Part shown: positions 12,001 through 15,000 of the stretch, in pieces
Numbering within the stretch: the first letter of the stretch is position 1
Layout of the letters: each line of letters begins with the position of its first letter
Made by a program: the position numbers
Assembly: GCA_040387495.1 (NCBI GenBank)
Contig: JAZKDQ010000007.1
Location: 11,933-75,932, forward strand
Reading direction: 5' to 3'
DNA from: Pseudomonadota bacterium
Lineage (GTDB): Bacteria; Pseudomonadota; Alphaproteobacteria; Paracaedibacterales; CAIOTO01
DNA: 64,000 nucleotides

Positions 12001-15000
12001 AGGGTCTTTGAAAATCAATAATGAGTCAATCGATGCAACTAAATTAATAGAAATTCTGGCATTTTTCGAAGGTCGCACGCTAGGGCGTATGTTTCCTGCC
12101 ACAGGCGATCTTTCTGAAGCAATCCACGATATGGCAAATGCGTTGAAAGAGTAAGCTGTTAAATTGTTCCAATAATAAACGCCATTAGTTTTGCCAGGTG
12201 GGATTGGGTGTCGACACTAAATATCTCATGTGCACGACTTAATTGTTGTAAAAAATCACCAAAATTTAATGAGTTTCTTGCTAAATTAACAACTGAATTT
12301 GCATCATATGCAACAATATGTAGTGTATCAATCAGCTTACCATCACCATCAACATGCGATACAAAAGAAAAAACCTCATCTTTTTCCAAAGGACGCTTAG
12401 GCAAATTTTCTAACCACATATTATTAGGCGAAAATGTTCCATCATGTGAATGGACAGAGTAGCCTCTTGTATTGTCAATCTCGATTATTGCGCCTCCATT
12501 TACCCCATTTGATATACGAGTATTAGCAGATACATTACGAGGTTGCGAGTCTGCATTAATAAGCGCGTGAGCGCGAATAGTATAGGGAGACCTAGAACTG
12601 TCTGTTTCTGCGATCTTATCATCGAAGAATGGATTTTCAATAACAATGTATCTTTCTCTGCCTTCTTTTGCTGGCAAATGTACAAAAAGACCATTGTTTA
12701 TTATTTGATGCCTATTAAGATTATATGTTGAAACAAAAACAACAGATTGGCCTGTTATTGAACGCTTTTCAATATTGCCAAATTCAACCATTTCGTTCAT
12801 TCCATTAACTTTTTTTGATTGATATAATTTAAGATCCGCTGAAACACTATTAACTTTTTGTGCCCAAAAGCCAGGTCTATGCTTTTCAAGTGCATCTTCA
12901 AACCAGGCCTTAAATGTATTTACATCTTTGCCACTAAAACCATATAAATTTTCATAACCAGTTAAACCATGGATATTCATAGATCCATCATTGAATTGTG
13001 CTAAAAGGCCACCCGTGAGCTCTTCCGTCAGGCGAAGAATCTCAAAATGCTGATAGAGACCGTCACCAACTTTAATCCTATGTGCAGGCAATCGATAGGT
13101 TGAATCAAATCCATGAATCACCATAGATGCCATCACGGCTTTTAAAATCGTTTCTTTTTCATTATCAGTAGCGTGACGTTTAGCATCAACATTAGTTTTT
13201 TCTTTCAACACATCATTGATGTTTTCCGTGTGTGAAGTATATGCTTCTGGCATTAAAGGATTTACATTAAATTTGGCACAGCGATTTTCATTTTCATTCG
13301 CAATATATGCCACACCGTCAGCAAAACACTGGGTCGCTATAAGAAATACCGCCAACACAACATTTAAATAAAAATTGATATTCATGCAATAACTCCAATT
13401 TAATTATTTTAATTTATTTTACAACAATACTTGTTAATATATTATATAGAAACGAAAAAAACAATATCAAACACTATTTTTATTATTAAGCGCTTGATCA
13501 TTAAGCGTGACGCGACATTTATAGTTATTAAAATATATGGATAATTTCATGCACATATACTTTGATTATTTTCTTTTATACCAGAGGACTGATACGGTAC
13601 TTATCGTTATAAACGCAAGAACTATCATAGCTGGAGAAAAATTTGAGAATGACGAAGCATTATCATTCAAATCTTCTTTTATTTTATTTAAAATAATCTC
13701 ATGATCTGCTTGATTGCTATTAATTTCGAGAATATTAGCTTTCTCCTCTGTACTGATTCTATGCTTTTCTTTTGCGAATCCATTGCCCTCTACATTTGCT
13801 TTGTTAGACGCATTAACAACCACATTTAAACTAGAATTGTTAGTGCGTAAGGAAGTGCTTGCTGCACTTGGTGATTCCAGCTTACCTAAGGCTTCCAACT
13901 CACTTGAGGCTTCCAAGACAGATGCTTCCTCTTCATTAATTGAGTCTTCTAACGTTTCAGAATCTTTGTCCACTGTATTGATGTCTCCTGCATTCCTAGC
14001 CATCATAGTTGACGTTTGCGGCATGCTGAGATGGTTTGTATTTGTTAAATCTTCAGAAAAGGTATCCATATTGCTGTACTCACCAGTAACAACAAAATTT
14101 ATTGCTACCAATTCTTGCTTTGCTTCAATTCCATCGACTCTTTTTTCTTCTATAAATTGAGCTTGTTCTTGTTGTTCCATGATTCTAGCCTGTTTTTGTT
14201 CTTTTTTTTGCTTTTCCGCATTTTGGACAAGTACAACGAAACCCTTGTTATGTTCTTCAAGCGTTTCATTGAACCACAATGCAAACATTTCTTTGGTTAT
14301 TCCGCCGTATGTCTCAAGTTCAGAAAAGATCGACCAGTGCTCATTTAAAGTAGGATCATTAAGCACTCTTCTGCCATCATTTTGAACATTAAGTATGCCA
14401 TTAAGCAAGATTGACAAAGTTTCCCCACGCTCTAGAATTCTGAAATGTTTCCAAAAAATATGATTTCCCTCTAAATTGCACTGATGTAATTTTCTCTCGC
14501 CATTATGAATCAACACACCTGCAATAATTGCTTTTAGAATTTTTCGTTTTTCTTCTTCATTTGCATGATTGTGGGAAACCTTGCTAGAGTCTGAAAGTAA
14601 TTTTATAATATTATCTGTTTGTTTTGAATTCCGAACAATTTCTTCTGGTCTAATTGTAAAATCCTCACGACGTATTGCATATTGATTTTCAATATATACC
14701 ACTCCAGAAGAAATTGAGTCGTTTGACCCTCCCGGCACTGAAAAGCAATGCGTTGCCATAGAGATTACGAATAGACCAAATTTTAAGAAAAATTTTAATT
14801 TCATTTTATTTATTCTTTTATATTATTAATTTATTTATGAATATATCTTTATCATAAAAATTTTAATACCTCAACGTATATTCTTTATAAAAGAACAATT
14901 TTGCAATCTGCCAAAAAAAATACTTATTTAAAGATCAAGTAAGAAATCAGTCGATTCATGCGTGATGCTATATAAACAAGTTCAACAGCAATTTATGATT

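What a model noticed while it worked through the whole genome (the two positions that open the first line are those of the whole stretch)
12159..14804. Expanded family of secreted proteins sharing a new all-alpha N-terminal domain
A ~170-aa domain is shared by eight intact genes: g00066 (C1:78497-79624), g00461 (C4:4187-6463), g00755/g00756 (C7:24091-26736), g01250 (C14:83776-84783), g01253 (C14:91007-92305), g01270 (C14:107090-108544) and g01373 (C16:5749-6534). It also occurs in one pseudogene (C8:113679-114308, in-frame TAA) and as an internal copy in the giant toxin g01240 (C14:70153-70578). In the eight genes it follows a Sec signal peptide and precedes unrelated, variable C-terminal regions. 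It matches no family, folds confidently as an all-alpha bundle with no convincing solved relative, and is amplified to 10-26 copies per genome in the genus while patchy in the order. It looks like a lineage-specific modular [...]
Evidence so far: BLASTP cluster. No Pfam hit at E<=0.01. A word-index search of 5.8e9 proteins with g00756 finds only itself and one 89% ortholog. Profile A1 over 62 order genomes hits 14 of 62; G000 has 10 matches, and the six genus relatives have 0, 10, 23, 26, 15 and 12. AF2 on the 69-sequence alignment A2: pLDDT 93.4, pTM 0.89, 10 helices. Foldseek PDB best E 0.034, TM 0.19. The profile against 1.84e9 representatives gives 247 clusters at E<=1e-3. Most have the domain at residues 1-190 of 150-1100-aa proteins. 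Giants of 2394-3315 aa hold 2-3 copies, one of them (P0108) a g01240 homolog with an LHH to [...]
(Added by a program. Inside this text positions count along the whole contig: contig position 11,933 is position 1 of the stretch shown here. "Call 12" and the like, gene names such as g00115 and contig names such as C1 are that model's own, and its searches are not shown. The text may have been shortened before it was handed on; [...] marks where a part breaks off. The agent that wrote the report below was given it as the finding of a first reader that could run no searches.)

Follow-up and report, generated by a model that had tools for sequence, protein, structure and literature searches.

The report
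Secreted endosymbiont protein family, new domain
Two neighbouring genes of a freshwater protist-endosymbiont-like bacterium belong to an old, lineage-restricted family of exported modular proteins that share a confidently folded helical domain with no known relative, which makes them candidate host-interaction proteins for a bacterial group in which none is known.

Summary
Window 12159-13385 (-) and 13566-14804 (-) encode 408-aa and 412-aa proteins. Each has a signal-peptide-like N-terminus followed by a shared ~165-aa helical domain. They are 28% identical, E 9e-19.

My own profile finds 10 copies in the genome: eight intact genes, one pseudogene and one internal copy in a 2621-aa toxin-like giant. 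It also hits 14 of 62 genomes of the order and 228 clusters among 1.84e9 representatives.

No Pfam, NCBIfam, PDB-sequence or fold relative was found. AF2 gives pLDDT 92-98 for the domain.

What I add:
- The organism is a Paracaedibacteraceae-like alphaproteobacterium.
- The paralogs are old and syntenic, not a recent burst.
- The domain is portable: N-terminal in most proteins, C-terminal in two subtilases, and in tandem inside nuclease-tipped giants.
- The C-terminus of g00755 is itself a conserved beta-sandwich module that had not been characterised.
- The small genes have no immunity-like partner.

My best reading, at moderate confidence, is a Sec-exported family in which the N-domain is an autonomous docking head and the tails vary. 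Export beyond the inner membrane, the binding partner and the function are all untested.

The parts
13566..14804 (-). g00756, 412 aa: signal-peptide-like N-terminus, helical N-domain, low-complexity Lys/Glu/Gln/Ser-rich tail, C-terminal hydrophobic helix
   Evidence: ORF; family HMM E 2.1e-58; no Pfam or NCBIfam family
14739..14804 (-). g00756 residues 1-22: Lys-containing start, hydrophobic core, small residues at -3 and -1 (Cys-Phe-Ser); probable Sec signal peptide
   Evidence: Read from the translation; hydropathy heuristic on the family. No trained predictor was run.
14232..14702 (-). g00756 N-domain, residues ~35-191
   Evidence: HMM alignment 41-197 of the stop-to-stop ORF, which carries 6 extra residues
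13584..13640 (-). g00756 residues 389-407: C-terminal transmembrane-like helix followed by Lys-Arg-Lys
   Evidence: Kyte-Doolittle 19-residue window 2.07. Among the 150 representatives only its own ortholog cluster P0015 has such a helix (1 of 150).
13386..13565 (.). 180-bp spacer between the two genes; holds one 11-of-12 sigma-70-like match on the minus strand (13470-13441)
   Evidence: The number of promoter-like sites in the region (15) does not exceed shuffles (mean 15.3), so this is not evidence of a promoter.
12159..13385 (-). g00755, 408 aa: signal-peptide-like N-terminus, helical N-domain, disordered linker, beta-sandwich plus three-helix C-domain
   Evidence: ORF; family HMM E 3.8e-55; AF2 models
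13320..13385 (-). g00755 residues 1-22: hydrophobic core ending Cys-Phe-Ala; probable Sec signal peptide. There is no positive charge in the first residues.
   Evidence: Translation; Kyte-Doolittle window 10-28 = 1.85
12855..13313 (-). g00755 N-domain, residues ~25-177. In the model the helices continue to residue ~189.
   Evidence: HMM alignment. AF2 pLDDT 92-98 over model residues 1-150, with seven helices.
12162..12803 (-). g00755 C-domain, residues 195-408: a separate conserved module with invariant His79, His120, Ser125, Pro126, Asn128, Phe147 and His162 (domain numbering)
   Evidence: Found in 12 of 62 order genomes; alignments A2 and A5; AF2 pLDDT 85.8, pTM 0.88; no clear fold relative

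Best explanation
g00755 and g00756 are two anciently diverged, syntenically conserved members of a protein family restricted to Paracaedibacteraceae-like (Holosporales sensu lato) bacteria, a group of protist endosymbionts.

Architecture. Each protein is made with a cleavable Sec-type signal peptide. It therefore leaves the cytoplasm with a ~165-aa seven-helix domain at its new N-terminus, followed by a tail that differs from paralog to paralog: disordered stretches, repeats, or folded modules such as the beta-sandwich of g00755.

Reading of the N-domain. I read it as an autonomous, portable extracytoplasmic module. It works as a common docking head, binding one shared partner or ligand through a conserved polar site. 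Arg is invariant; Thr/Ser and two to three His are conserved; these lie on different helices. The head would bring the varied tails to the same place, on the symbiont surface or on a host structure. Inside the nuclease-tipped giant proteins, tandem copies would serve as the target-binding part.

Likely target. Because the small genes have no immunity-like partner, the family is more likely aimed at the host or the symbiont's own surface than at rival bacteria.

Shown here: the family, its architecture, the signal-peptide-like N-termini, the confident fold, the lack of any relative, the portability of the domain, the age of the paralogs, and the gene neighbourhoods.

Inferred: export, passage of the outer membrane, binding, and the host as target.
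For: Family and architecture:
- 10 copies in G000.
- 228 clusters in 1.84e9 representatives.
- Of the 150 listed, 141 have the domain at the N-terminus. Of those, 122 are not cut at the start, and 105 of the 122 have a strongly hydrophobic 10-residue stretch before the domain. The median projected domain start is residue 24.

Portability:
- 9 of 150 carry the domain internally or C-terminally.
- Two of these are subtilases with the domain at the C-terminal end (P0086, P0098).
- Five are giants with 2-3 tandem copies. P0001 has DUF637, P0003 has an LHH nuclease tip, and P0005 has DUF637 with a Tox-HNH-HHH nuclease tip.

Autonomy: short forms exist that are little more than signal peptide plus domain. 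Examples are g01373 at 261 aa, a 250-aa open frame in G012 and a 289-aa one in G025.

Tails:
- 117 of 141 have tails of 80 aa or more. These fall into 68 BLAST clusters, 50 of them singletons.
- The few tails with a Pfam family are mostly interaction modules: Sel1 in 3, Ank in 1, DnaJ in 1.

Conserved site, over 163 copies: Arg15 100%, Thr33 91% plus Ser 8%, His91 95%, His153 88% plus Tyr 10%, His70 72%.

Fold: pLDDT 92-98.

No immunity partner: seven of the eight small genes are followed by a convergent or housekeeping gene (hemC, NAD kinase, putA, Bax1-I, UPF0102, a convergent 306-aa ORF, or a paralog). The eighth, g01253, is followed on the same strand by an unassigned 1538-aa ORF.

Lifestyle: the genome encodes a TLC ATP/ADP translocase and ankyrin-repeat proteins. 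Named homologs are hypothetical proteins of Candidatus Finniella inopinata. The review PMC11909080 (passages read) lists that organism as a cytoplasmic symbiont of a cercozoan. The same review says no secreted molecules of the group are known.
Against: - No experiment and no trained signal-peptide predictor supports export.
- A signal peptide takes a protein only to the periplasm. g00756 has a C-terminal hydrophobic helix that could hold it in the inner membrane.
- No partner is known.
- I could not inspect model coordinates, so it is not shown that the conserved Arg, Thr and His residues lie together or on the surface. They could be structural.
- Replacements of the three His are not correlated (Fisher p 0.39). 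That gives no support for a single all-or-none site.
- An invariant Arg with conserved His residues fits an enzyme as well as a binding pocket.
- The position of the copies inside the giants resembles that of a receptor-binding region only by analogy. The giants have no recognised TPS domain.
- Both a secretin and a type VI sheath gene occur in 59 of 62 order genomes, so co-occurrence says nothing about the route.
Confidence: 0.4

Rival explanations
1. The N-domain is the working part: a metal- or cofactor-dependent enzyme or small-ligand binder. The variable tails (repeats, beta-sandwich, disordered regions) only aim it at different substrates or places.
For: - Invariant Arg, and Thr/Ser, His91 and His153 conserved at 88-99% despite ~25% overall identity.
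- Stand-alone short forms exist.
- The identifiable partner domains are mostly non-catalytic interaction modules: Sel1, Ank, DnaJ.
- The g00755 tail is an Ig-like sandwich.
Against: - No similarity to any enzyme family or fold.
- His70 is replaced in 28% of copies and His153 by Tyr in 10%. The losses are not correlated.
- Only 76 of 163 copies keep the full Arg-Thr-His-His-His pattern.
- The domain also sits at the end of subtilases and in tandem inside nuclease-tipped giants. Those proteins already carry an enzyme.
Confidence: 0.22
2. The N-domain is an export or delivery module. After Sec transport it is recognised by an outer-membrane machine (for example the lone secretin), or it itself carries the tail across the outer or a host membrane.
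For: - The domain sits directly after the signal peptide in most members.
- Very diverse cargo-like tails.
- The genome has a secretin, a T2SS-type ATPase and TolC, but no VirB4.
- The signal peptides themselves are similar among paralogs.
Against: - The domain also works at the C-terminal end of subtilases and in the middle of giants.
- Short forms carry no cargo.
- Secretin and type VI genes are near-universal in the order (59 of 62 each), while the domain is in 14 of 62.
- The domain has no strongly hydrophobic helical hairpin (sequence; hydropathy scan).
Confidence: 0.14
3. The small genes are interbacterial polymorphic toxins of the MafB type. The conserved N-domain is the trafficking part, the variable tails are toxins, and immunity genes lie elsewhere or are unrecognised.
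For: - The layout of conserved N-terminus and variable C-terminus is the hallmark of such systems.
- The same domain occurs in giants with DUF637 and with LHH or Tox-HNH-HHH nuclease tips.
- A related endosymbiont was reported to carry three polymorphic toxin loci (PMC8163844, section 19 read).
Against: - Seven of the eight small genes in G000 lack a same-strand small downstream gene. They are flanked by housekeeping genes.
- No tail of a small member matches a toxin family among 150 representatives and 28 order proteins.
- No orphan cassettes were seen next to them.
- Many tails are low-complexity rather than compact domains.
Confidence: 0.06
4. The family is an envelope or periplasmic housekeeping family of this lineage with no role in host contact.
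For: - A signal peptide shows only export to the periplasm.
- g00756 has a possible inner-membrane anchor.
- The genes sit among housekeeping genes, and their synteny is conserved.
Against: - Presence is patchy: 14 of 62 order genomes, and none found in one 98%-complete genus member.
- Match numbers vary widely (0-27 per genome in the genus), and one G000 copy is a pseudogene.
- Tails are extremely diverse.
- The domain is fused to Sel1, Ank and J domains and to toxin giants.
All of these are unlike a housekeeping function.
Confidence: 0.1

Closest known systems
Polymorphic toxin families with a conserved N-terminal part and variable C-termini (for example Neisseria MafB with its DUF1020 N-domain; recalled from Zhang et al. 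2012 and Jamet & Nassif 2015, both cited in PMC8163844)
   Same: Signal peptide, conserved N-terminal domain, highly variable C-terminal regions and many paralogs per genome. The same domain also occurs in giant nuclease-tipped toxins.
   Different: No sequence or fold relation to any such N-domain. No immunity-like gene after seven of the eight small genes. Tails of small members match no toxin family. Paralogs are scattered singly among housekeeping genes, not in cassette arrays.
CdiA/filamentous-haemagglutinin-type contact-dependent toxins
   Same: The giants (G000 C14:65158-73020, P0001, P0003, P0005) have a signal peptide, a long beta-rich repetitive N-terminal part, and a DUF637 pre-toxin region or an HNH-type nuclease tip (both in P0005). 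The helical domain copies lie centrally, where CdiA carries its receptor-binding region (position recalled from the CdiA literature).
   Different: No TPS (haemagglutination activity) domain and no FHA repeat family was detected (Pfam at E<=0.1; E<=1e-4; NCBIfam). The TpsB search was uninformative. The small family members have none of these parts.
Sec-dependent effector families with conserved leaders in wall-less or intracellular bacteria (phytoplasma SVM-signal proteins, Liberibacter Sec-delivered effectors; recalled)
   Same: Delivery by the general Sec route, similar signal peptides among paralogs, variable mature parts, and a host-associated lifestyle.
   Different: Here a folded ~165-aa domain, not just the signal peptide, is shared. 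The bacterium is diderm, so an outer-membrane step is still needed.
Borrelia PFam54 helical surface-lipoprotein paralogs (BBA64/CspA group)
   Same: An expanded paralogous family of exported all-helical domains of similar size. One member (6hpn) appears among the weak Foldseek rows (rank 4, E 0.15).
   Different: TM-scores of 0.11 and 0.16 are at noise level. There is no lipobox: the residue before the Cys is Gln or His. There is no sequence similarity.

Membership tests
Any Pfam or NCBIfam family (N-domain) | Score above the curated cut-off, or at least a weak match shared by several members | tested here: not met
   No family over the cut-off for g00755 or g00756. Of 35 N-domains scanned at E<=10, no Pfam family was matched by more than one member.
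Sec signal peptide | Short polar or charged start, hydrophobic core of ~10-15 residues, small residues at -3 and -1 of a cleavage site | tested here: met
   By eye, both proteins end the leader with Cys-Phe-Ala or Cys-Phe-Ser at residue 22. By hydropathy heuristic, 105 of 122 N-terminally complete representatives pass. No trained predictor or experiment was available.
Bacterial lipoprotein | Lipobox with Gly, Ala or Ser directly before the Cys | tested here: not met
   The residue before the leader Cys is Gln or His in g00755, g00756, g00066 and g01373.
Polymorphic toxin system | Recognisable toxin domain at the C-terminus | tested here: not met
   Met only for the giants (LHH in P0003, Tox-HNH-HHH in P0005). 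None of the small members among 150 representatives, 28 order proteins and 8 G000 genes has one.
Polymorphic toxin system | Immunity gene immediately downstream on the same strand | tested here: not met
   In G000 the downstream neighbours are g00755 (a paralog) for g00756, hemC, NAD kinase, putA, Bax1-I, UPF0102 and a convergent 306-aa ORF. Only g01253 has a same-strand neighbour, a 1538-aa ORF.
CdiA / two-partner secretion exoprotein (giants only) | N-terminal TPS (haemagglutination activity) domain and FHA repeats | tested here: not met
   Pfam lists only DUF637 for the G000 giant at E<=0.1. Pfam lists DUF637, LHH or Tox-HNH-HHH for P0001, P0003 and P0005. NCBIfam lists nothing relevant.
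CdiA / two-partner secretion exoprotein (giants only) | DUF637 pre-toxin region before a variable toxin tip | tested here: met
   P0001 46.5 bits and P0005 43.2 bits, both over the 26.6-bit cut-off. The G000 giant scores 19.7 bits, under the cut-off.
CdiA / two-partner secretion exoprotein (giants only) | TpsB (ShlB-type) outer-membrane partner in the genome | tested here: inconclusive
   No match in G000, but the same search rang in none of the 14 control genomes.
Known protein fold (N-domain) | Structural match standing above background | tested here: inconclusive
Known protein fold (g00755 C-domain) | Structural match standing above background | tested here: inconclusive

The most novel reading that the evidence does not exclude
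The helical domain is a self-sufficient delivery device. After Sec export it would carry whatever is fused to it across the outer membrane, or into or onto the host cell, without any of the known dedicated secretion systems. That would make it a bacterial counterpart of the host-targeting leaders of eukaryotic pathogens. The family would then be the long-sought effector repertoire of Holosporales-type protist endosymbionts.
Probability: 0.1. Interest if true: 0.85.

Novelty: new variant of a known kind. Interest (0 to 1): 0.48.

Why it matters
Holosporales-type bacteria are a large, old lineage of obligate symbionts of protists. A 2025 review (PMC11909080, passages read) states that there are no experimental data on their secreted molecules. 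It names only the type VI system as a candidate for delivering them.

A Sec-dependent modular family gives concrete, testable candidates for host interaction. It has up to 27 matches per genome in the genus, fusions to Sel1, ankyrin and J domains, and copies inside nuclease-tipped giants.

Both the N-domain and the g00755 C-domain are confidently modelled and have no detectable relative. They are therefore reasonable targets for structure determination and for new family definitions.

Tried and rejected
- The search for related loci with alignment A1 failed because it has no conserved stretch. With g00756 alone it found nothing in genome contigs. I then used GatB only to place the organism.
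- The ESM Atlas gave no usable hit by features. Its own model of g00755 is poor, at mean pLDDT 0.30.
- Profile searches against PDB sequences: for the N-domain, three homeodomain rows at E 0.11-1.5, which I judge to be chance matches to the Trp-Phe helix. For the C-domain, nothing.
- JAMM/MPN idea for the g00755 C-domain. It came from a His-x-His ... Ser-Pro-x-Asn pattern, with the JAMM motif recalled from memory. I rejected it because the spacing varies among homologs, the first His is not invariant and the Asp position is Asn. The model is also a beta-sandwich.
- OTU-like reading of the g01270 tail (motif recalled). It remains an untested lead.
- hhalign of the N-domain profile against the N-termini of the G038, G039 and G018 proteins that carry the g00755-type C-domain gave probability 15.5% over 61 columns. 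This is inconclusive.
- Co-occurrence with secretion systems is uninformative, because the secretin and TssC are each in 59 of 62 order genomes.
- The homodimer prediction for the N-domain returned 'no answer' (score 0.13, mark 0.42). It is no evidence either way.
- No RNA holder was listed for the stretch. DNA holders are watershed and freshwater metagenomes. I did not lay reads.
- In G002, the genus member without the family, hemC lies in a non-syntenic neighbourhood. The locus therefore could not show gain or loss.
- The promoter and terminator scan of 11900-15400 is at shuffle level.
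Full report
**Where and what.** The window is G000:C7:11933-75932, so the stated coordinates are window coordinates. Two minus-strand ORFs lie there: 12159-13385 (408 aa, g00755) and 13566-14804 (412 aa, g00756), 180 bp apart. hemC ends 4 bp from the stop of g00755 on the other strand. A DUF2948 gene starts about 470 bp beyond the start of g00756, diverging from it. The two proteins align over their first ~212-225 residues at 28% identity, E 9e-19, and not elsewhere.

**Organism.**
- The genome is 1.66 Mb in 20 contigs, about 39% G+C and 99.9% complete.
- DUF2948 is, by my recollection, an alphaproteobacterial family.
- GatB is 71-76% identical to MAGs labelled Holosporales, Candidatus Finniella and Alphaproteobacteria. 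It is 63-70% identical to Paracaedibacter, Odyssella and Caedibacter records.
- The genome encodes a TLC ATP/ADP translocase and ankyrin-repeat proteins.
- I therefore treat it as a Paracaedibacteraceae-like, probably intracellular, bacterium from fresh water. The DNA holders are watershed and freshwater metagenomes.

**The family is real.**
- All claimed members translate as stated, and the C8 copy has one in-frame stop.
- My HMM of the eight N-termini finds exactly ten ORFs with a significant copy in the six-frame ORF set. These are eight intact genes (E 1.9e-42 to 1.2e-59), the pseudogene (6.9e-14), and residues 816-954 of a 2621-aa ORF (1.5e-13).
- In the order, 14 of 62 genomes have a match. 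Within the genus the numbers are 0, 10, 23, 27, 14 and 11.
- A 35-row profile finds 228 clusters at E<=1e-3 among 1.84e9 representatives.
- The only named homologs are three 'hypothetical proteins' of Candidatus Finniella inopinata.

**Architecture across the 150 listed representatives**.
- 141 have the domain at the N-terminus. 19 of those are cut at the start.
- Of the other 122, 105 have a strongly hydrophobic 10-residue stretch before the domain. Most of the remaining 17 look like slightly weaker or 5'-shortened leaders.
- The median projected domain start is residue 24.
- The leaders are similar among paralogs and usually end Cys-Phe-Ala or Cys-Phe-Ser. The residue before the Cys is Gln or His, so they are not lipoboxes.
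- Nine representatives carry the domain elsewhere:
  - five giants of 1506-3315 aa with 2-3 tandem central copies;
  - two subtilases with the domain at the C-terminal end (P0086, P0098);
  - two proteins with a longer N-terminal extension, P0025 and P0041.
- Among the giants, P0001 has DUF637, P0003 has an LHH nuclease tip, and P0005 has DUF637 with a Tox-HNH-HHH nuclease tip.
- The G000 giant has a signal-peptide-like start, a beta-rich repetitive first 800 residues, the helical domain, and a weak DUF637 match. It lies next to a Tn3 transposase and a resolvase.
- No TPS domain was detected in any giant.

**Tails.**
- 117 of the 141 N-terminal-domain representatives have tails of 80 residues or more. 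These fall into 68 BLAST clusters, 50 of them singletons. The largest cluster has 10 members.
- Pfam recognises only Sel1 (3 proteins), Ank (1), DnaJ (1) and a weak ParcG match (1) among small members.
- Of 28 further proteins from order genomes, only one had a Pfam family, a subtilase.
- Short forms that are little more than leader plus domain exist, for example g01373 at 261 aa.

**Conservation and structure of the N-domain.**
- Over 163 copies, Arg15 is invariant. Thr33 is 91% (Ser 8%), Ala51 90%, His91 95%, Trp145 88%, Phe146 87%, His153 88% (Tyr 10%) and His70 72%.
- The full Arg-Thr-His-His-His pattern is kept in 76 of 163 copies. Replacements of the His residues are not correlated.
- AF2 on mature g00755 with a 43-row alignment gives pLDDT 92-98 for model residues 1-150, with seven helices of 4 or more residues. 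It gives a disordered linker (165-188) and a moderate C-domain. The conserved polar residues fall on different helices.
- Foldseek against PDB: best E 0.027 at TM 0.14.
- Profile searches of PDB sequences and of Pfam give nothing consistent.
- So the claim 'no detectable relative' stands. A new fold is not proven.

**The g00755 tail is a module of its own.**
- Residues 195-408 have relatives in 12 of 62 order genomes. These are mostly behind the same N-domain. In other genera they lie behind N-termini that my profile does not recognise.
- hhalign against those N-termini gives 15.5% probability, which is inconclusive.
- Seven residues are invariant in 22 sequences, three of them His.
- With the deeper alignment AF2 gives pLDDT 85.8 and pTM 0.88: a beta-sandwich followed by three helices.

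**Age and synteny.**
- In a maximum-likelihood tree of 35 N-domains, the eight G000 paralogs need eight changes of label. That is, they never group together.
- Several of them pair with a copy from another species of the genus. The starred pairs are g01253 with G003 and g01373 with G003. More weakly supported are g00756 with G001 (88/84), g00461 with G003 (96/61), and g00755 with G006 and G001 (93/98).
- g00755 and g00756 fall in different halves of the tree, so they are not a recent tandem duplication.
- hemC lies next to the g00755 ortholog in G006, G001 and G003. DUF2948 lies next to the g00756 ortholog in G001.
- The family is thus old and diversified rather than recently amplified.

**Neighbourhoods and export routes.**
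- The small members are scattered singly among housekeeping genes.
- Seven of eight have no same-strand small gene downstream that could be an immunity gene. g01253 is followed on the same strand by an unassigned 1538-aa ORF.
- The genome has a lone secretin next to a TPR/ARM-like protein. It also has one T2SS-type ATPase, TolC, a type VI sheath gene and no VirB4.
- The secretin and TssC are each present in 59 of 62 order genomes, so they do not track the family.

**Reading.**
- The features that must be explained together are these: a leader, then a portable and autonomous domain with a small conserved polar set, then extremely varied tails. To these add occurrence at the end of secreted proteases and in tandem inside filamentous toxin-like giants, no immunity partners, and restriction to a host-associated lineage.
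- I think a common docking (partner- or ligand-binding) head on Sec-exported proteins explains most of this, at confidence 0.4.
- An enzymatic head (0.22) explains the conserved Arg and His and the interaction-type tails equally well, but has no support from fold or family.
- A pure export or delivery leader (0.14) fits the N-terminal position. It fits poorly with the C-terminal and internal copies and with the cargo-less forms.
- A MafB-like interbacterial toxin family (0.06) fails the immunity-gene and toxin-domain tests.
- A housekeeping envelope family (0.10) fits poorly with the patchy, variable and pseudogenising distribution.

**Literature.**
- PMC8163844 (section 19 and passages read) describes three polymorphic toxin loci, one with a Tox-HNH-HHH giant, in a Paracaedibacter-like symbiont of Bodo. 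It does not mention this domain in the parts I read.
- PMC11909080 (passages read) states that secreted molecules of the group are unknown.
- Two full-text searches brought up no description of this family: 'Holosporales, secreted, effector, signal peptide' and 'Finniella, genome'. Supplementary tables of these papers were not examined.

Noticed in passing
window 12162-12803 (-): The C-terminal 214 residues of g00755 form a separate conserved family with three invariant His and a Ser-Pro-x-Asn motif. It is modelled as a beta-sandwich plus three helices and has no clear fold relative. It also occurs behind other N-termini in other genera of the order.
   Followed up: yes
window 16270-17316 (+): A 348-aa ORF about 1.5 kb beyond the start of g00756, across the DUF2948 gene. 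It has a hydrophobic, signal-peptide-like N-terminus and no Pfam family. It may be another exported protein of unknown kind.
   Followed up: partly
window 20975-22252 (-); also G000 C1:204549-205928 (L146:4549-5928): Ankyrin-repeat proteins, typical of host-associated bacteria. The second lies near the genome's only secretin gene.
   Followed up: no
G000 C14:65158-73020 (L016) and C14:73100-76908: The 2621-aa toxin-like giant with the internal helical domain lies directly beside a Tn3-family transposase and a resolvase, so it may be mobile. Its last ~120 residues match no toxin family.
   Followed up: partly
G000 C14:86000-90616 (L140:6000-10616, -): A 1538-aa ORF with no Pfam family lies directly downstream of family member g01253 on the same strand. 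It is the only same-strand neighbour of any small member.
   Followed up: no
G000 C14:107090-108544 (L013), tail: The end of the g01270 tail recalls the Cys and His boxes of OTU-type peptidases, with Ser at the nucleophile position. The motif is recalled from memory. Pfam shows no OTU match even at E<=10.
   Followed up: partly
G000 C1:209067-210740 (L146:9067-10740, -): A lone secretin (Secretin plus Secretin_N_2) overlaps an 891-aa TPR/ARM-like ORF, with no other type II secretion or pilus genes beside it. A secretin gene occurs in 59 of 62 genomes of the order.
   Followed up: partly
L004 (G006:C43) and L103 (G036:C56): An N-domain from the window's genus groups with one from a different family of the order (support 98/83). 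This hints at transfer between lineages or at a very old paralog.
   Followed up: no
G000 C16:4207-5598 (L144): A phage-type large terminase gene lies immediately upstream of family member g01373 on a 9.7-kb contig.
   Followed up: no
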